Shown here in pieces: positions 51,913 through 56,627 of a stretch of DNA of 64,000 bases (position 1 is its first letter; each line of letters begins with the position of its first letter). The stretch is taken from the NCBI GenBank assembly GCA_035479295.1, contig DATIIV010000012.1, positions 65,010-129,009 of the forward strand, written 5' to 3'. The position numbers and the translations under genes are program-made. The notes under the pieces are model-generated. The model did not search any database. It was not told the DNA's origin and worked only from the letters and a program-made list of their open reading frames with translations. Origin of the DNA: Candidatus Saccharimonadia bacterium (GTDB lineage Bacteria > Patescibacteriota > Saccharimonadia > UBA4664).

Positions 51913-52299
51913 CTAAACCTTCTTGGCTAGTAGCGCCTTTACCCGCTCCGTCACCTCTTTGGGCGTCATCTCGGCCTTCACAATGTAGTCGTCGGCGGCC
52001 ATTTTGTAGACGCGCGTGGCCGTCTCGGTGTCGCCCATGTTGGTTAGCACGACCACTTTAGCGTCGCGCCCATTGGCCTGAGAACGCAGCTTTTGCAGCA
52101 TCTCCAAGCCATTCATATTGGGCATCATCAAATCGAGCAAAATAATATCAGGTGCAAACGACTCAATTAATTCCAGTCCACCGGCGCCATCGCCGGCCGT
52201 GGCCACCTCGTAGCCCTCATTCTCAAACTTCACCCGATACATCTGCACGATCGCCATGTCGTCCTCGATGATCGCCACTTTGACTTTTTGGTCACTCAT
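51913..52299 (-). CDS. Stand-alone response regulator receiver
   Basis: VAIIEDD ... IILLDLMMP ... VVVLTNM ... K. 128 aa. Confidence 0.85.
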   Translation of the reverse strand: MSDQKVKVAIIEDDMAIVQMYRVKFENEGYEVATAGDGAGGLELIESFAPDIILLDLMMPNMNGLEMLQKLRSQANGRDAKVVVLTNMGDTETATRVYKMAADDYIVKAEMTPKEVTERVKALLAKKV

Positions 52300-52362
52300 A
52301 TCTGTAGTTTATAACGCGATTTAACCATAAGCAATTATTTCTCAGCTAATTTGTAGCTGCTG

Positions 52363-53010
52363 CTACTCGATAGGCAGACGATAGATGCGGTTAAGAATCT
52401 GGAGAGCAGTAAGCTTCTCTGCTGCCTCCAGCGGCTTGCCCACCGTAATGGCATAAGAAGGCCATAGCCATCGGCCGCGGCACCACTCGATGTGCACTGG
52501 AATTATCTTTACTTGAGGAGTCTTGGCTAGAACTTCAATGCCGCTTCGGGGCCGAATCTTATGCGGTGTGCGCTTGCCCTCAGGAAAGATCATGATAGAT
52601 TGGTGGTGTTTCAGAAACAGCTGGGCTGCAGTGAGGCCATAAATGTAAGAGGCATTGGCGCTAGCCGGGAAAGCTCCAAACGCAAAGAGGAAGTGACGTA
52701 GGAACTTGTCGAAGAGGGCGTTATGGGCAAAAAAGCGGAGAGGTGCTAGGCCGGCAAGGATGCCTGGTGGAAGTGCGACGCAAATTATAAACGGGTCAAA
52801 CATGCTCTGGTGATTTGCTGCAACTATATAGCAATGATCAGGACTAATATCACCAGGCTGGAGGTTGACTCTAGTCCGATGCGGTAGCAAGTGGGTAATG
52901 AGGCGAATTGGCCAGTAAAGGACGCGCTGACTGAGTAAGATCACGCGAAGACGGCCAGGCGATAAAAGCGAGTCAAGGGACGCAAAAGATTTTACTTGAG
53001 TAGCCGACAT
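52363..53010 (-). CDS. PlsC-family (lysophospholipid/1-acylglycerol-3-phosphate) acyltransferase
   Basis: HxxxxD motif (ANHQSMFD) and FPEGKRT motif. Lower GC. Confidence 0.7.
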   Translation of the reverse strand: MSATQVKSFASLDSLLSPGRLRVILLSQRVLYWPIRLITHLLPHRTRVNLQPGDISPDHCYIVAANHQSMFDPFIICVALPPGILAGLAPLRFFAHNALFDKFLRHFLFAFGAFPASANASYIYGLTAAQLFLKHHQSIMIFPEGKRTPHKIRPRSGIEVLAKTPQVKIIPVHIEWCRGRWLWPSYAITVGKPLEAAEKLTALQILNRIYRLPIE

Positions 53011-53093
53011 CGGTAAAATTGATGATATGTAATTGCGTAATTATATAATAATATTAAAGGCAATGCAAGATGCAAAATGAGGAGTAATAGATA

Positions 53094-53807: not shown

Positions 53808-53844
53808 TATCAACTTAAGCAAAAGAGCTATAGAATAAAGATTA

Positions 53845-56013
53845 ATGGATTATCGGGCATTACTTCTATTTTTAGTAACGGCTGCGAATCTTTTCCTGGG
53901 TCTTGCCGTTTACTTTCGCAATCCTCGCAATCGCCAGTATATCTATTATTTTGCTTTTGCCTCATCGATAGCGCTCTGGACCTTAACCAACGGGCTCTAT
54001 CAGATTTTCCCGCCGCGCCTCCTTTTATCGATGGCGCTTTTGAGCTATGCCAGTGCCATCCTTATGGCCACCTTTTTCCTGCTGTTTAACCGTGAGTTTA
54101 CCAAAATTAAGCTAGGTCCTGACTGGCTGATCCTGCTTGTGGGCGGCCTAATGGCCTTAGTCGCGCTCAAACCTGGCGTACTAGCCTCCTCGATCGCTGC
54201 TGATCGCTCCATTGTTACTACTCCGGGAATCGCTGTTATGGCCATCTTGCTGGTTGGGTTTCTGTCGTGGGGCTTATTACTGTTGGTTGCATCGTTGCGC
54301 CGAGCTCGAGGCTTAGTCCGCACTCAGCTGCAGTTTATGTTGGCTGGTATGACAACTGCCGCCTTAATGGGGGTGCTATTTAACTTAGCACTACCGGTAA
54401 TGGGCCATATTTATACCTATGTTTATCTCGGCCCCGACTTCACGACTTTTTACGTCGCTGCCATTGCCTACAGCGTTATTCGGCAGCGTCTCTTTAACTT
54501 ACGGGTAGCTATTGCTCGGACGATAGCGTATCTTTTGGTCTTAACGGCTATGGCTGGCATGTACATTGCGGCTATTTTAAGTATAACTTCATACTTCTTG
54601 CCGTCGGGTCGGATCTCTGGCAGCCAAAATCTGATCTCGACCGTCGTAGCGATTGTACTGGTTTTCACCTTCCAACCCCTCCGCCGCTTCTTTGAGCGCG
54701 TTACCGACAGTGTGTTTTATCGTGATCGGTACGATTCGCAGGTGGTGTTGAATGAGTTCAGCAAGGTGCTGGTGTCGGAGCTGGATCTGGATCGGATTCT
54801 GCGCCGCAGCCTCAGTCAGCTGTGCCGCGACGTGCACATTCAGTTTGGGCAGCTGGTGATCTTTAATCAGGACCGAGTGTACCGGGTGGAGCACTTTGGG
54901 CCGCTGCCCAAGCGGCTGATGGTGGCGCCGGAGCTGCGGCGGCTGGATGAGTCGCTGCTGGTGGCCGATGAGCTTGAGGCCGGCGAGCGCAAGACCATCA
55001 TGGACGAGCACGCCGTGCGTGTATCGGTGCGGCTGGCCACCCGCGATGAGTTCGTGGGCTACCTGCTGCTGGGCGATAAGCTGTCGGGCGATATTTACTC
55101 CAACCAAGACATTGAGCTGCTGGAGATTATCGGTAAGGAGCTGGCCGTGGCGATTCTGAATGCCAAGGCCTATGCCGAGATCGAGGCTTTTAACCGCACA
55201 CTGCAGGAGCGGGTCGATCACGCCACCAATCGACTGCGCGTGGCTAACCGCCACCTCAAAGAGCTTGATAAAGCCAAAGATGAGTTTATTAGCATGGCCT
55301 CGCACCAGCTGCGCACGCCGCTCACTACCATTAAGGGCTATCTGAGCATGATGCTGGAGGGCGATGCCGGGCGTCTCACCGCCGCCCAGAAGCAGTTTGC
55401 CGGCTACGCTTTTAGCTCGTCGGAGCGCATGGTTAACCTCATCTCCGACCTGCTTAATGTAAGCCGCCTAAGTGCCGGCCGTTTTCTGATTCAAACCAAG
55501 CCCACCGATATGGTGGCGATGGTGGCCGACGAGGTGCGTCAGCTGCAGAGCCATGCCGCGGCTAAGCACATTAGCCTCATCTTTGAGCAGCCACCAGCTG
55601 ACTTTCCGCTGGTGGAGATCGATGAGAACAAGACGCGCCAAGTCATCATGAACTTTATCGACAACGCCATTTACTACACCCAGACCGGCAGCGTGCGGGT
55701 GCGGCTTACCTTGGCCGGGCCGATCGTGCGGCTCGAGGTCATCGACACTGGCATTGGCGTGCCAGCAGCCGAGAAGCGCCACCTGTTCACCAAATTTTAC
55801 CGGGCCGAGAATGCCCAGGTGGTGCGGCCAGACGGTACCGGTCTAGGTCTGTATTTGGCCAAACGAGTGGTGGAAGATCAAGATGGTACAATACTATTTA
55901 GTAGCACCGAAGGCAAGGGTTCGGTGTTTGGATTTGAGCTACCGATTAAGCCCCGCCACAAGTCGGCGCCCAAATCGGCCAACGATAAGCAGAAGGAAAA
56001 CCAGCATGGCTAA
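53845..56013 (+). CDS. PrsK-like sensor histidine kinase (multi-TM N-terminus, GAF-like, HisKA, HATPase_c), cassette B
   Basis: H-box ISMASHQLRTPLT, N-box IDNAIYYT, DTGIGV, GTGLGL. Paralog of 34759-36987. Confidence 0.8.
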   Translation: MDYRALLLFLVTAANLFLGLAVYFRNPRNRQYIYYFAFASSIALWTLTNGLYQIFPPRLLLSMALLSYASAILMATFFLLFNREFTKIKLGPDWLILLVGGLMALVALKPGVLASSIAADRSIVTTPGIAVMAILLVGFLSWGLLLLVASLRRARGLVRTQLQFMLAGMTTAALMGVLFNLALPVMGHIYTYVYLGPDFTTFYVAAIAYSVIRQRLFNLRVAIARTIAYLLVLTAMAGMYIAAILSITSYFLPSGRISGSQNLISTVVAIVLVFTFQPLRRFFERVTDSVFYRDRYDSQVVLNEFSKVLVSELDLDRILRRSLSQLCRDVHIQFGQLVIFNQDRVYRVEHFGPLPKRLMVAPELRRLDESLLVADELEAGERKTIMDEHAVRVSVRLATRDEFVGYLLLGDKLSGDIYSNQDIELLEIIGKELAVAILNAKAYAEIEAFNRTLQERVDHATNRLRVANRHLKELDKAKDEFISMASHQLRTPLTTIKGYLSMMLEGDAGRLTAAQKQFAGYAFSSSERMVNLISDLLNVSRLSAGRFLIQTKPTDMVAMVADEVRQLQSHAAAKHISLIFEQPPADFPLVEIDENKTRQVIMNFIDNAIYYTQTGSVRVRLTLAGPIVRLEVIDTGIGVPAAEKRHLFTKFYRAENAQVVRPDGTGLGLYLAKRVVEDQDGTILFSSTEGKGSVFGFELPIKPRHKSAPKSANDKQKENQHG

Positions 56014-56455
56014 CACTGATACCGCCCATCAACCGGCCCAGCTGGGGGCCGGCAAGATCATCTTAATCGCCGAGGACGATCCGTTTATTTCGCGCATGTA
56101 CGAGATCAAACTGCAGGGCGCTGGCTTTACGGTTATCGTTAAGAATAATGGTCGCGACGCCTTTGAGGCTATTAAGTCTGAGCATCCGAGCCTGGCCGTC
56201 CTCGACATTAATATGCCCGAGCTGAGCGGTCTTGAGGTATTATCGGCACTACAGAGCGACGGCTTTGATCTGACGACCATGCCGGTAATCGTGCTAACCA
56301 ATTCGTCGGAGCTGTCGGATCGCAAAAAGGCGCTCAGCTACGGCGCCGAGTACCTGGTAAAGGCCGAGCTCACGCCGCGCGAGGTGCTTAATATGATCGA
56401 CGCCAAGCTCGGCCTCGACCCTGGCGACAGCGAGGCTAAGCCGGCCGATGCTTAG
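56007..56455 (+). CDS. Stand-alone response regulator receiver, translationally coupled to the kinase
   Basis: ATG at 56007 overlaps the kinase stop (ATGGCTAA). ILIAEDD ... LAVLDINMP ... VIVLTN ... K. Confidence 0.8.
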
Positions 56456-56627
56456 CGCACTGCTCTTGGCGGTGGTGGTCTTCGCGGCCAGTTTTGTAGC
56501 CTTAATGGCCGTCGAAAAGCTGATTCACCGCTGGACCTACAACCCCGACCGGAGTTATCGCTGGGGCGTGTGGCTGTTCTCGAGTTTATTCGCAGTTTAT
56601 GCGTTTGTGACGGCGTTAGGCCGGTAA
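56448..56627 (+). CDS. Possible 59-aa two-TM membrane micro-protein coupled to the receiver gene
   Basis: ATG overlaps the receiver stop (GATGCTTAG). Translates as MLSALLLAVVVFAASFVALMAVEKLIHRWTYNPDRSYRWGVWLFSSLFAVYAFVTALGR. Not in the ORF track because it is under 60 aa. Confidence 0.3.
   Translation: MLSALLLAVVVFAASFVALMAVEKLIHRWTYNPDRSYRWGVWLFSSLFAVYAFVTALGR

What the first reader, a model, noticed from the sequence alone, without database searches (positions are those of the whole stretch)
51913..56627. Paralogous cassette B: PlsC-like acyltransferase and receiver diverging from LuxI/NAS-like GNAT, PrsK-like kinase, coupled receiver and micro-ORF
This is a second copy of the GNAT-plus-multi-TM-GAF-kinase core. 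GNAT-B is the clearer LuxI-like member (RLRYKICVEQLHW, EYDDYD, ADLSRL). The kinases are paralogs throughout, from their N-termini (MDYRALLLFLVTAANLFLGLAVYFRNPR vs MIFDLAILILASVSNLALGSLVFMRNPQ) to their H-boxes. Here the accessory enzyme is a PlsC-type lysophospholipid acyltransferase rather than an AdoMetDC-fold protein, which again points to lipid or acyl chemistry. The synthase, the PlsC gene and the 5' end of the kinase are about 47-50% GC. The kinase, receiver and a 59-aa two-TM ORF are chained by overlapping stop and start codons. Two paralogous, apparently imported cassettes in one 64-kb window is unusual.
Basis: partly seen in the sequence, partly recalled or inferred. Interest (0 to 1): 0.75.

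Follow-up and report, generated by a model that had tools for sequence, protein, structure and literature searches.

The report
Swappable signal-synthase and sensor-kinase module
In this Saccharimonadia (TM7, candidate phyla radiation) genome, a LuxI-like acyltransferase gene sits directly upstream of a many-pass membrane sensor kinase, and across relatives the enzyme and the kinase's membrane sensor change together as one swappable block, which suggests a strain-specific chemical signalling system in these tiny symbiotic bacteria.

Summary
The six genes are real, at the stated coordinates, and overlap as described. The window comes from a Candidatus Saccharimonadia MAG (GCA_964451975.1).

- **GNAT-B** belongs to the LuxI / N-acyl-amino-acid-synthase clan. 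PF13444 passes its threshold, the best fold matches are AHL synthases, and 8 of 9 LuxI signature residues are kept. It fails the curated cut-offs for LuxI, TIGR03694, FeeM and OlsB.
- **The kinases** are true paralogs (45% identity, full length) from an old duplication. They are not PrsK members.
- **The two GNATs** are only remote homologs (21% identity).
- **"Imported"** is not supported. The locus is syntenic across Saccharimonadia, and the low-GC3 block is a property of the whole kinase family.

The main new result comes from orthologous loci. Receivers, GAF and kinase core are 68-88% identical, while the TM sensor is 27-46% and the GNAT is 47-54% or undetectable. GNAT identity tracks TM-sensor identity and nothing else (partial r 0.64, permutation p about 3e-4). 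One metagenome shows a clean replacement of the GNAT plus TM sensor.

This points to an agr-like synthase-receptor specificity module that makes an N-acyl lipid-type signal. An aminolipid pathway (GNAT plus PlsC) is the main rival. LuxI-homolog/kinase adjacency in CPR genomes was already reported in silico in 2020.

The parts
51913..52299 (-). RR1: stand-alone receiver (128 aa, no output domain), transcribed in the same direction as the PlsC-like gene
   Evidence: PF00072, 89.5 bits. Orthologs are 80-88% identical across Saccharimonadia loci. Its identity tracks the kinase core and GAF, not the TM sensor.
52363..53010 (-). PlsC-family (LPLAT) acyltransferase, 215 aa, divergent from GNAT-B
   Evidence: PF01553, 46.9 bits. 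TIGR00530 scores 47.6, below its cut-off of 103. HX4D and FPEGKRT motifs are in the translation. The subfamily is rare (21 hits). It sat beside a GNAT-type gene and, where the contig extends far enough, the kinase in every context read.
53011..53093 (.). 83-bp AT-rich divergent intergenic region (26.5% GC) with promoter-like hexamers on both strands
   Evidence: A GAGGAG Shine-Dalgarno-like motif lies about 9 nt upstream of the GTG start of GNAT-B.
53094..53807 (+). GNAT-B: N-acyltransferase of the LuxI / N-acyl-amino-acid-synthase clan (237 aa). Proposed signal or lipid synthase.
   Evidence: PF13444, 32 bits (passes). Autoind_synth 20.9, FeeM 17.8 and TIGR03694 43.7 all fall below their cut-offs. 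AF2 model pLDDT 81; the top PDB folds are BjaI, TofI, RpaI, MesI, EsaI and LasI. Invariant residues are R46, D68, D71 and R90, with W56, E66 and R126 nearly invariant.
53845..54699 (+). HK-B membrane sensor region (aa 1-285, about 9 hydrophobic segments). This is the hypervariable part.
   Evidence: HisKA_7TM, 29.6 bits against a cut-off of 28.6. Hydropathy. Only 27-46% identical to orthologs whose kinase core is 78-87% identical. It co-varies with the GNAT. GC3 is 0.55.
54700..55194 (+). HK-B cytoplasmic GAF-like domain (aa 286-450)
   Evidence: GAF_2 E 0.0028, below threshold. DevS GAF chains match at E 7e-4 to 2e-3. The PrsK model alignment spans this region. Orthologs are 68-84% identical.
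55195..56013 (+). HK-B HisKA and HATPase_c catalytic core (H-box SMASHQLRTPLT)
   Evidence: PF00512, 65 bits; PF02518, 83.5 bits.
56006..56455 (+). RR2: stand-alone receiver (149 aa). Its start overlaps the kinase stop by 8 nt.
   Evidence: PF00072, 74 bits. Overlap ATGGCTAA. Orthologs are 71-84% identical.
56448..56627 (+). Conserved 59-aa two-TM membrane protein. Its start overlaps the RR2 stop by 8 nt.
   Evidence: Homologs in 12 other loci share HRxxxNPDxSYRWGxWLF...LGR-stop. No Pfam or NCBIfam family.
57420..58505 (-). Polysaccharide deacetylase, a conserved convergent neighbour of the kinase-RR2-micro operon. Its link to the cassette is unproven.
   Evidence: PF01522, 94 bits. Found in the same position in L001, L004, L005, L008-L011, L013, L016 and L017.
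34759..38734 (-). Paralogous cassette A: RR (38216-38734), AdoMet_dc-like (37796-38137), GNAT-A (36984-37796), HK-A (34759-36987)
   Evidence: L018 has the same gene order. The same GC3 pattern applies: enzymes and HK TM at 0.57-0.61, the rest of the kinase at 0.72, the receiver at 0.76.

Best explanation
Cassette B is a resident, lineage-typical Saccharimonadia 'make-and-sense' module.

Proposed mechanism:
1. GNAT-B, a LuxI / N-acyl-amino-acid-synthase-clan enzyme, transfers a fatty or other acyl group from acyl-ACP or acyl-CoA to an amino compound (SAM or an amino acid). This gives a lipophilic N-acyl product.
2. The divergently transcribed PlsC-type acyltransferase may add a second acyl chain. 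In relatives, a Methyltransf_33 methyltransferase, an aminotransferase or an ArgRS paralog may further tailor the product.
3. The product partitions into the membrane and is sensed by the roughly 9-TM sensor of HK-B, which is encoded 37 bp downstream in the same operon.
4. HK-B signals through its GAF-like domain and HisKA/HATPase core to two highly conserved stand-alone receivers (RR1, RR2). A conserved 59-aa membrane protein acts as an accessory.

The synthase and the membrane sensor form a specificity unit that diversifies and is exchanged as a block, like the agrB-agrD-agrC hypervariable region of staphylococci. The rest of the pathway stays constant.

Shown: gene content, families, folds, synteny, the covariation and the block replacement.
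Inferred: the chemistry of the product, that the kinase senses it, and the output.
For: Enzyme identity:
- PF13444 passes its threshold. The next best models are TIGR03694 (E 2e-11), Autoind_synth and FeeM.
- PDB sequence hits below E 0.1 are all AHL synthases.
- The AF2 model (pLDDT 81) matches BjaI, TofI, RpaI, MesI, EsaI and LasI best, with target-normalised TM 0.56-0.76, ahead of FeeM.
- The LuxI signature positions R, W, E, D, D, R, (E->D), S and R are kept; only F28 is replaced, by C (alignment, invariants).
- All 73 nearest relatives hit TIGR03694 and 52 hit TraI, against 7-8 that hit OlsB.

Operon coupling:
- The GNAT stop lies 37 bp from the kinase start. Kinase/RR2 and RR2/micro-ORF overlap by 8 nt.
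- In cassette A, GNAT-A and HK-A overlap by 4 nt.

Recurrence:
- 28 of 91 kinases of this family with at least 900 bp of upstream sequence have a LuxI/NAS-like GNAT within 1.1 kb upstream on the same strand.

Modular evolution:
- Compared with orthologs, RR1 is 80-88% identical, the kinase core 78-87%, GAF 68-84% and RR2 71-84%. The TM sensor is 27-46% and the GNAT 47-54% or below BLAST detection.
- GNAT identity correlates with TM-sensor identity (Spearman 0.57-0.76) and not with GAF or core (0.29 and 0.26; -0.02 within the HK-B clade).
- Partial r is 0.58-0.91 with permutation p 2e-4 to 5e-3. On 27 non-redundant loci, partial r is 0.64 and p about 3e-4.
- Controls (PlsC, RR1, RR2, micro-ORF, deacetylase) track GAF/core (0.35-0.8) and not the TM sensor (-0.1 to -0.27).

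Direct example of a swap:
- L102 and L106, from one metagenome, are 83% identical in DNA on both sides. They have no detectable similarity across a block of about 2 kb (2.0 kb in L102, 2.5 kb in L106) that holds the GNAT and the first ~220 kinase codons. Protein identities are GAF 94%, TM 39%, GNAT 11%.
- L102 and L105 keep GNAT 87% and TM 84%.

Other:
- Weak whole-sensor matches to PrsK (HK-B) and to the AHL sensor LuxN (HK-A).
- An independent survey flagged LuxI-homolog/sensory-kinase adjacency in CPR genomes, including Saccharibacteria, as candidate complete quorum-sensing systems (PMC7567580).
Against: - No product, ligand binding or phosphotransfer has been shown, here or in the literature found.
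- GNAT-B fails the curated cut-offs of every named family except the generic PF13444.
- The GNAT and the TM-coding part of the kinase are contiguous on the DNA. Block recombination alone, without functional matching, could produce the covariation.
- Low TM-segment identity is partly expected, because TM helices tolerate substitution.
- Orthologous kinase loci L009-L011 carry a quite different upstream gene set (a PaaK-like protein identified by eye with no Pfam hit, ThiF and a nitroreductase) and no GNAT. So the kinase does not strictly need a GNAT partner.
- Both receivers lack output domains and no DNA-binding regulator is in the cassette, so the output is unknown.
- CPR bacteria usually lack fatty-acid synthesis (general knowledge, not tested here), so the acyl donor is unclear.
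Confidence: 0.5

Rival explanations
1. Aminolipid pathway under two-component control. GNAT-B (as the N-acyltransferase, like OlsB or GlsB) and the PlsC-type enzyme (as the O-acyltransferase, like OlsA or GlsA) make an acyloxyacyl amino-acid membrane lipid. The kinase senses membrane or envelope state and regulates envelope remodelling. The product is a structural lipid, not a signal.
For: - An adjacent PF13444 N-acyltransferase and PF01553 O-acyltransferase are the canonical two-step aminolipid pair (review PMC11631085; domains).
- The PlsC-B subfamily is rare and sat in this cassette in every context read.
- Genes of amino-acid chemistry lie in the PlsC-RR1 operon of relatives: Methyltransf_33, an aminotransferase and an ArgRS paralog.
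- Envelope enzymes are nearby: a conserved polysaccharide deacetylase, and LPG_synthase_C in other loci of this kinase family.
Against: - GNAT-B scores 17.5 bits on the OlsB model against a cut-off of 350, and sits on the NAS/AHL side. The review states that aminolipid N-acyltransferases form a separate branch, and that further acylation of NAS products has not been reported.
- PlsC identity follows the species signal and does not co-vary with the GNAT or the TM sensor.
- PlsC is missing from L005, from cassette A and from the ThiF-type cassettes.
- A bulk lipid gives no obvious reason for a hypervariable synthase-sensor block.
Confidence: 0.2
2. Physical partnership without a diffusible product. 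The GNAT binds the kinase's membrane domain as an accessory subunit, or acylates the kinase or a co-sensor. The two co-evolve because they touch.
For: The covariation is specific to GNAT and TM sensor. The genes are tightly coupled in translation or operon structure.
Against: The catalytic and substrate-binding signature residues of the LuxI clan are invariant across the family, which argues for a small-molecule enzyme. Loci of this kinase family carry unrelated enzyme types upstream, such as ThiF, nitroreductase and PvlArgDC, and these are unlikely all to be structural partners.
Confidence: 0.12
3. Classical AHL quorum sensing. This is a narrower form of the best explanation: GNAT-B uses SAM and an acyl donor to make an acyl-homoserine lactone, which HK-B senses as LuxN does.
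For: The top fold and PDB sequence matches are AHL synthases, notably the CoA-dependent BjaI, RpaI and MesI. The LuxI signature residues are kept. HK-A's sensor weakly matches LuxN.
Against: PF00765 scores 20.9 against a cut-off of 24, and TraI models give E 0.006. The same residues are shared with TIGR03694-type N-acyl amino acid synthases, so they do not identify SAM as the substrate. F28 is replaced by Cys. No LuxR-type receptor lies within +/-10 kb.
Confidence: 0.13
4. Variable cargo slot. The RR1-to-kinase interval is only a hot spot where unrelated biosynthetic genes land, and the kinase has no functional link to them.
For: Orthologous kinase loci carry different gene sets in this interval.
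Against: This does not explain why GNAT similarity predicts TM-sensor similarity while every other gene in the locus does not. Nor does it explain why the replacement block ends inside the kinase gene near the end of the TM region.
Confidence: 0.05

Closest known systems
LuxI-family acyl-homoserine-lactone synthases (PF00765; TofI, BjaI, RpaI, EsaI, LasI)
   Same: Same GNAT-derived fold; these are the best structural matches. The N-terminal signature residues R, W, E-x-D-x-x-D and R, and the D/E-x-S-R strand, are kept. Size is about 200-240 aa.
   Different: Scores below the Pfam gathering threshold (20.9 against 24). F28 is replaced by Cys. There is no adjacent LuxR. The partner is a membrane histidine kinase. 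The substrate is unknown.
PEP-CTERM/exosortase-associated N-acyl amino acid synthases (TIGR03694; Craig, Cherry & Brady 2011, cited in PMC11631085) with the PrsK/PrsR system
   Same: This is the best-scoring named HMM for GNAT-B and for all 73 relatives. It is also found beside a multi-TM plus GAF histidine kinase.
   Different: 43.7 bits against a cut-off of 112. The kinase scores 26.9 against 300 on the PrsK model. There is no sigma-54 PrsR, exosortase or PEP-CTERM context within +/-10 kb. The host is a monoderm-like CPR bacterium.
OlsB/OlsA and GlsB/GlsA two-step aminolipid pathways
   Same: Adjacent PF13444 N-acyltransferase and PF01553 O-acyltransferase genes.
   Different: The N-acyltransferase is not in the OlsB/GlsB branch (17.5 bits against 350). 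The genes are divergent rather than co-transcribed. The GNAT is operonic with a kinase.
Staphylococcal agr locus (hypervariable agrB-agrD-agrC specificity region; own knowledge)
   Same: The signal-producing gene and the polytopic sensor domain of the kinase are contiguous. They diverge together and are exchanged as a block, while the kinase core and response regulator stay conserved.
   Different: The signal would be an N-acyl small molecule made by a GNAT, not a ribosomal thiolactone peptide. There are two stand-alone receivers in place of the DNA-binding AgrA.
LuxM/LuxN and AinS/AinR (AHL sensed by a 9-TM hybrid kinase in Vibrio)
   Same: A lipophilic acyl signal sensed by a kinase with about 9 TM segments and no large periplasmic domain. 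HK-A's sensor weakly matches the LuxN model (E 7.7e-6).
   Different: 24 bits against a cut-off of 1550. It is not a hybrid kinase. A GAF-like domain is present. The synthase is of LuxI type, not LuxM type.
LuxI-homolog / putative sensory kinase adjacencies in CPR genomes (Bernard et al. 2020, mSystems, PMC7567580)
   Same: The same kind of gene pair, including a Saccharibacteria genome, proposed as a candidate complete quorum-sensing system.
   Different: That survey listed adjacencies only. It did not describe the PlsC partner, the two receivers and micro-ORF, the paralogous cassettes or the synthase-sensor co-diversification.

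Membership tests
LuxI-type AHL synthase (PF00765) | Score at or above the Pfam gathering threshold | tested here: not met
   20.9 bits against 24. NCBIfam TraI models give E 0.006.
LuxI-type AHL synthase (PF00765) | Conserved signature residues (EsaI numbering R24, F28, W34, E43, D45, D48, R68, E97, S99, R100) | tested here: inconclusive
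   R46, W56, E66, D68, D71, R90, D123 (for E), S125 and R126 are present, and C50 replaces F28 (alignment to TofI; invariants). The same residues are shared with TIGR03694-like proteins, so they are not diagnostic.
LuxI-type AHL synthase (PF00765) | LuxI-like fold | tested here: met
   AF2 model pLDDT 81. Top PDB hits are BjaI, TofI, RpaI, MesI, EsaI and LasI, E 7e-10 to 2e-7.
LuxI-type AHL synthase (PF00765) | Uses SAM and releases AHL plus MTA | not testable with these tools
   Needs an enzyme assay or LC-MS.
TIGR03694 PEP-CTERM/exosortase-associated acyltransferase (N-acyl amino acid synthase) | Score at or above the NCBIfam cut-off | tested here: not met
   43.7 bits against 111.95.
TIGR03694 PEP-CTERM/exosortase-associated acyltransferase (N-acyl amino acid synthase) | Genomic association with the exosortase/PEP-CTERM system | tested here: not met
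   No exosortase or PEP-CTERM family among the called genes within +/-10 kb of either cassette. The rest of the genome was not examined.
OlsB/OlsA-type aminolipid synthesis pair | PF13444 N-acyltransferase adjacent to a PF01553 O-acyltransferase | tested here: met
   The definition is from PMC11631085.
OlsB/OlsA-type aminolipid synthesis pair | The N-acyltransferase belongs to the OlsB/GlsB/GluB branch | tested here: not met
   OlsB models give E 0.0027, 17.5 bits against 350. Only 7-8 of 73 relatives touch the OlsB models, against 73 for TIGR03694.
OlsB/OlsA-type aminolipid synthesis pair | Product is a 3-acyloxyacyl amino-acid lipid | not testable with these tools
   Needs lipidomics.
PrsK (TIGR02916) PEP-CTERM system histidine kinase | Score at or above the cut-off, with the sigma-54 regulator PrsR as partner | tested here: not met
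   26.9 bits against 300, although the alignment spans TM plus GAF. The partner receivers are single-domain.
HisKA_7TM (PF16927) histidine kinases | N-terminal 7TM region at or above the gathering threshold, followed by HisKA and HATPase_c | tested here: met
   HK-B 29.6 and HK-A 36.1 bits against 28.6.
GAF-domain sensor kinase | GAF domain at or above the Pfam threshold | tested here: inconclusive
   GAF_2 scores 18.3 bits against 28.6. DevS GAF chains match at E 7e-4 over the last ~50 residues. No structure model was made.
LuxN-type AHL sensor kinase | Score at or above the cut-off, with hybrid kinase architecture | tested here: not met
   HK-A scores 24.3 bits against 1550, HK-B has no hit, and there is no fused receiver.
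agr-like polymorphic synthase-sensor specificity module (functional analogy, not homology) | The signal-synthesis gene and the sensor domain co-diversify and are exchanged as a block, while the kinase core and regulator are conserved | tested here: met
Known anti-phage defence systems (PADLOC) | Any cassette protein matches a defence-system model beyond generic domains | tested here: not met
   Only generic receiver and HATPase-level hits.

The most novel reading that the evidence does not exclude
Saccharibacteria and other Patescibacteria have a previously uncharacterised family of lipid-type (N-acyl) cell-cell signalling systems. In these, a LuxI-clan synthase and a roughly 9-TM sensor domain form exchangeable 'pherotype' cassettes on a conserved kinase/receiver chassis. 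This would give strain-specific communication (kin, density or host-surface sensing) in ultra-small episymbionts. In cassette B the signal may be a new diacylated N-acyl amino-acid derivative made with a dedicated PlsC-type partner.
Probability: 0.35. Interest if true: 0.85.

Novelty: new variant of a known kind. Interest (0 to 1): 0.64.

Why it matters
Saccharibacteria are obligate episymbionts with reduced genomes, and how they sense partners and each other is largely unknown. A conserved two-component chassis with a swappable synthase-plus-sensor block would be a concrete, testable candidate for strain-specific chemical communication in the candidate phyla radiation. It would also be a non-peptide counterpart of agr-type pherotypes.

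It defines small experiments:
- Express a 0.7-kb gene and look for an N-acyl product.
- Swap about 285 codons of sensor and ask whether specificity follows.

If the aminolipid reading is right instead, this would be the first aminolipid pathway built on a NAS/LuxI-branch enzyme, in bacteria thought to depend on host lipids.

Tried and rejected
- **GNAT-B relatives in GTDB species genomes.** The scan with the GNAT-B alignment found none, because the family is too rare or divergent for the pattern search. I switched to the kinase sensor alignment, which gave 51 loci plus 58 metagenome loci.
- **Recent horizontal import.** I rejected this. Synteny with FolD and the deacetylase is conserved. The HK-A and HK-B clades each contain other species. 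The GC3 dip over the TM sensor occurs in 20 of 24 loci whatever the genome GC.
- **PrsK/PEP-CTERM membership.** Rejected on scores and context.
- **Anti-phage defence.** Rejected; only generic domain hits.
- **Structured RNA or riboswitch in the cassette.** There is no Rfam hit at E <= 0.1 across 51500-57500.
- **The 238-aa antisense ORF at 54589-55305.** It lies inside the kinase gene. I treated it as a high-GC antisense artefact, and it is not called in the public annotation.
- **Craig et al. 2011 (PMC3187218).** The library does not hold it, so statements about it rest on its title as cited in PMC11631085 and on the TIGR03694 model name.
- **Telling SAM from amino-acid substrates by conserved residues.** This was not possible, because the residues are shared across both enzyme groups.

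Full report
**1. What is there**

The interval 51913-56627 holds six genes in two divergent units.

On the minus strand:
- A stand-alone receiver, RR1 (51913-52299).
- A PlsC-family acyltransferase (52363-53010).

On the plus strand, after an 83-bp intergenic region of 26.5% GC that carries promoter-like hexamers on both strands:
- GNAT-B (53094-53807).
- A 722-aa histidine kinase, HK-B (53845-56013).
- A second stand-alone receiver, RR2 (true start 56006).
- A 59-aa two-TM ORF (56448-56627).

Kinase/RR2 and RR2/micro-ORF each overlap by 8 nt (ATGGCTAA, ATGCTTAG). The GNAT stop lies 37 bp before the kinase start.

The window is part of contig CAYVKC010000001.1 (130,948 bp) of GCA_964451975.1, a Candidatus Saccharimonadia MAG. 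All six genes are called in its annotation.

**2. Families**

- RR1 and RR2 contain only a receiver domain.
- The PlsC-like protein passes PF01553 (46.9 bits) but not the PlsC equivalog (47.6 against 103). Its HX4D and FPEGKRT motifs are intact.
- HK-B has HisKA_7TM (29.6 against 28.6), HisKA and HATPase_c. It has about nine hydrophobic segments by crude hydropathy.
- Support for the GAF domain is weak: GAF_2 E 0.0028, and DevS GAF chains at E about 1e-3.
- The sensor half aligns end to end with the PrsK model, but at 26.9 bits against a cut-off of 300. HK-A's sensor weakly matches LuxN (24 bits against 1550).

GNAT-B passes only the generic PF13444 model (32 against 22.4). It fails all the named families:

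| Model | Score (bits) | Cut-off |
|---|---|---|
| TIGR03694 | 43.7 | 112 |
| Autoind_synth | 20.9 | 24 |
| FeeM | 17.8 | 27 |
| OlsB | 17.5 | 350 |

Further evidence on GNAT-B:
- A profile of six orthologs finds AHL synthases as its only PDB matches below E 0.1.
- The AF2 model (pLDDT 81) matches BjaI, TofI, RpaI, MesI, EsaI and LasI first, and FeeM at rank 19.
- In the TofI alignment, GNAT-B keeps the LuxI signature positions (R46, W56, E66, D68, D71, R90, D123, S125, R126). Only F28 is replaced, by C50.
- These residues are also invariant in relatives that all match TIGR03694. They place the enzyme in the LuxI/NAS clan but do not identify the amino substrate.
- The family proper is very small. 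An exhaustive HMMER search of 1.84 billion representatives gave 11 proteins below 1e-30 and 198 below 1e-10.

**3. The claimed paralogy**

- HK-A (34759-36987) and HK-B are 45% identical over the full length. By region, identity is 25% in the TM sensor, 49% in GAF and 61% in the core.
- The two GNATs are only 21% identical (E 0.017).
- Their homology is real but remote: hhalign 83% probability, E 8.5e-6, and a 73-sequence HMM hits GNAT-A at E 4e-10.
- GNAT-A's model (pLDDT 85) has a GNAT fold that superposes best on FeeM, with TM 0.72.
- In an NJ tree of 46 kinases, HK-A and HK-B fall in different clades, and each clade contains kinases from other species. The duplication is old.

**4. Not imported**

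GNAT-B's orthologs lie in the same locus in other Saccharimonadia:

RR1(-) [unknown 117-aa protein, Methyltransf_33] PlsC(-) <> GNAT(+) HK(+) RR2(+) [micro-ORF] then the polysaccharide deacetylase(-)

FolD is nearby in three genomes.

| Part | GC3 |
|---|---|
| PlsC | 0.53 |
| GNAT-B | 0.56 |
| Kinase codons 1-285 (TM) | 0.55 |
| GAF | 0.78 |
| Kinase core | 0.70 |
| RR1 | 0.72 |
| RR2 | 0.71 |
| Background genes | 0.75 +/- 0.07 |

Cassette A shows the same pattern. However, the TM-sensor dip occurs in 20 of 24 loci of the kinase family (mean 0.48 against 0.60). It therefore marks a fast-evolving or frequently exchanged module in general, not a recent acquisition by this genome.

**5. The kinase family and its neighbours**

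A scan of GTDB species genomes with the sensor alignment gave 51 loci, and a metagenome scan gave 58 more. Nearly all are Saccharimonadia or other Patescibacteria.

- Downstream, RR2, the micro-ORF (motif HRxxxNPDxSYRWGxWLF...LGR-stop, found in the window plus 12 other loci) and the deacetylase recur.
- Upstream, the interval between RR1 and the kinase varies between loci:
  - a LuxI/NAS-like GNAT with or without PlsC;
  - a GNAT fused to or followed by ThiF;
  - AdoMet_dc-like plus a GNAT-A-type enzyme;
  - an Acetyltransf_9-like GNAT;
  - a PaaK-like protein (identified by eye from the sequence; no Pfam hit) with ThiF and a nitroreductase;
  - PvlArgDC with LPG_synthase_C.
- Of 91 kinases with at least 900 bp of upstream sequence, 28 have a LuxI/NAS-like GNAT within 1.1 kb on the same strand.
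- The PlsC-B subfamily is rare (21 hits). In each additional context read it sat in the same cassette. The extra genes between PlsC and RR1 were an aminotransferase (L059), an ArgRS paralog (L060) or Methyltransf_33 (L001, L004, L043).

**6. The key comparative result**

Identity of the window's proteins to their counterparts in orthologous loci:

| Component | Identity |
|---|---|
| RR1 | 80-88% |
| Kinase core | 78-87% |
| GAF | 68-84% |
| RR2 | 71-84% |
| TM sensor | 27-46% |
| PlsC | 33-49% |
| GNAT | 47-54% in three loci, below BLAST detection in the rest |

These ranges leave out two outlier loci: the distant L016 (RR1 38%, core 64%, GAF 50%, RR2 64%) and L043, whose kinase is fragmented (RR1 75%, core 75%, GAF 58%, RR2 70%).

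The three loci with a recognisable GNAT-B (L001, L004, L043) are also the three with the highest TM-sensor identity (42-46%).

Covariation across 16 GNAT-kinase pairs:
- GNAT identity against TM-sensor identity: Spearman 0.57-0.60.
- GNAT identity against GAF: 0.29. Against the core: 0.26.
- Within the HK-B clade: 0.76 for TM against -0.02 for GAF.
- Partial correlations controlling for GAF (or GAF plus core) are 0.58-0.91. Label-permutation p is 2e-4 to 5e-3, including after dropping the closest relatives.

With 27 non-redundant loci, partial r is 0.64 and p about 3e-4.

Controls behave the opposite way. PlsC, RR1, RR2, the micro-ORF and the deacetylase track GAF/core (0.35-0.80) and not the TM sensor (-0.10 to -0.27).

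A direct example comes from one metagenome:
- L102 and L106 are 83% identical in DNA on both flanks.
- They share no detectable similarity over a block of about 2 kb (2.0 kb in L102, 2.5 kb in L106). That block holds the GNAT and the first ~220 kinase codons.
- Protein identities are GAF 94%, TM 39% and GNAT 11%.
- L102 and L105 keep GNAT 87% and TM 84%.

**7. Interpretation**

The synthase and the membrane sensor behave as one evolutionary unit on a conserved signalling chassis. This is the pattern known from the agr hypervariable region (own knowledge). It is what a cognate signal-synthase/receptor pair predicts.

I therefore favour a make-and-sense module. GNAT-B makes a lipophilic N-acyl compound, the PlsC-type enzyme and other neighbours possibly tailor it, HK-B's polytopic sensor perceives it, and the signal passes to RR1 and RR2.

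- Shown: genes, families, folds, synteny, covariation and block replacement.
- Inferred: the product, its perception and the output.

Caveats:
- Physical contiguity means block recombination alone could create the covariation.
- TM helices diverge quickly anyway.
- Some orthologous kinases have no GNAT upstream.
- Neither receiver has an output domain.
- The acyl donor in a CPR bacterium is unclear.

The main rival is an OlsB/OlsA-like aminolipid pathway. It is supported by the PF13444 plus PF01553 adjacency, which the aminolipid review gives as the canonical two-step route, and by the cassette-specific PlsC. It is weakened by GNAT-B's position on the NAS/AHL side and by PlsC's lack of covariation with the GNAT.

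**8. Prior knowledge and novelty**

Bernard et al. 2020 (PMC7567580) reported that 18 LuxI homologs in CPR genomes lie next to a sensory kinase. One case is in a Saccharibacteria genome. They proposed these as candidate complete quorum-sensing systems.

The basic idea is therefore not new, and it has not been tested experimentally in any paper my searches found.

What is added here:
- the full anatomy of the cassette;
- the cassette-specific PlsC partner;
- the old paralogy of cassettes A and B;
- the variable-cargo architecture upstream of the kinase;
- the co-diversification and block exchange of synthase and sensor.

I rate it a new variant of a known kind, with moderately high interest.

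Noticed in passing
P0015 (relative of window 53094-53807): A chytrid fungus protein (Synchytrium microbalum XP_031022970.1, annotated as acyl-homoserine-lactone synthase, 412 aa) has a GNAT-B-family domain (profile E 5e-66). One member of the scanned relative set has an AMPK1_CBM domain; I attribute it to this protein's ~180-residue C-terminal extension, but the scan did not name the member. Possible bacterium-to-fungus transfer.
   Followed up: partly
window 56679-56765: A perfect 28-nt inverted repeat with a 31-nt loop lies just after the micro-ORF. It is unique in the window and has no Rfam match. It could be a terminator or an insertion scar.
   Followed up: partly
window 56846-57392: A 94-aa and an 86-aa ORF that look like an antitoxin/RelE-type toxin pair lie between the micro-ORF and the deacetylase. 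In several orthologous loci (for example L005, L008-L010, L013) those two genes are less than about 130 bp apart, so the pair looks like an insertion. The family was assigned by eye only.
   Followed up: no
window 37796-38137 (cassette A): The AdoMet_dc-like protein (PF02675, 44.6 bits) has ETS where class-1 AdoMetDC has its ES self-cleavage site. It may be a different pyruvoyl decarboxylase that feeds an amine to GNAT-A. Related kinase loci carry PvlArgDC instead.
   Followed up: no
L009-L011, about 1.8-5.9 kb: In orthologous HK-B-clade loci, a four-gene set replaces the GNAT/PlsC pair: an aminotransferase, a ~510-aa PaaK-like protein with no Pfam hit, a ThiF-family protein and a nitroreductase-family protein. 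This looks like a different small-molecule pathway in the same slot.
   Followed up: partly
L102, L105, L106 (metagenome Ga0172380): Near-identical kinase chassis (GAF 93-94%) carry two unrelated GNAT plus TM-sensor modules in one community. The DNA breakpoints lie upstream of the GNAT and at about codon 220 of the kinase.
   Followed up: yes
L013, L044: These contigs are labelled 'Candidatus Nanoarchaeia archaeon' but carry the Saccharimonadia-type kinase. L013 has the full kinase-RR2-micro-deacetylase locus. Mis-binning or mislabelling is likely.
   Followed up: no
L043 (CP064960.1), 5986-8173: In this complete 1.32-Mb genome the orthologous kinase is split into at least five ORFs. It is either a pseudogene or carries long-read frameshift errors.
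   Followed up: no
L004 6962-7825: A second, tandem GNAT (265 aa, no Pfam hit) lies upstream of the GNAT-B ortholog and hits both the GNAT-B and GNAT-A profiles. A MacB-type ABC transporter pair sits between it and PlsC.
   Followed up: no
window 9889-10872: This is the lowest-GC gene in the window (47.2% against a gene mean of 59%), a 327-aa ORF that I did not examine.
   Followed up: no
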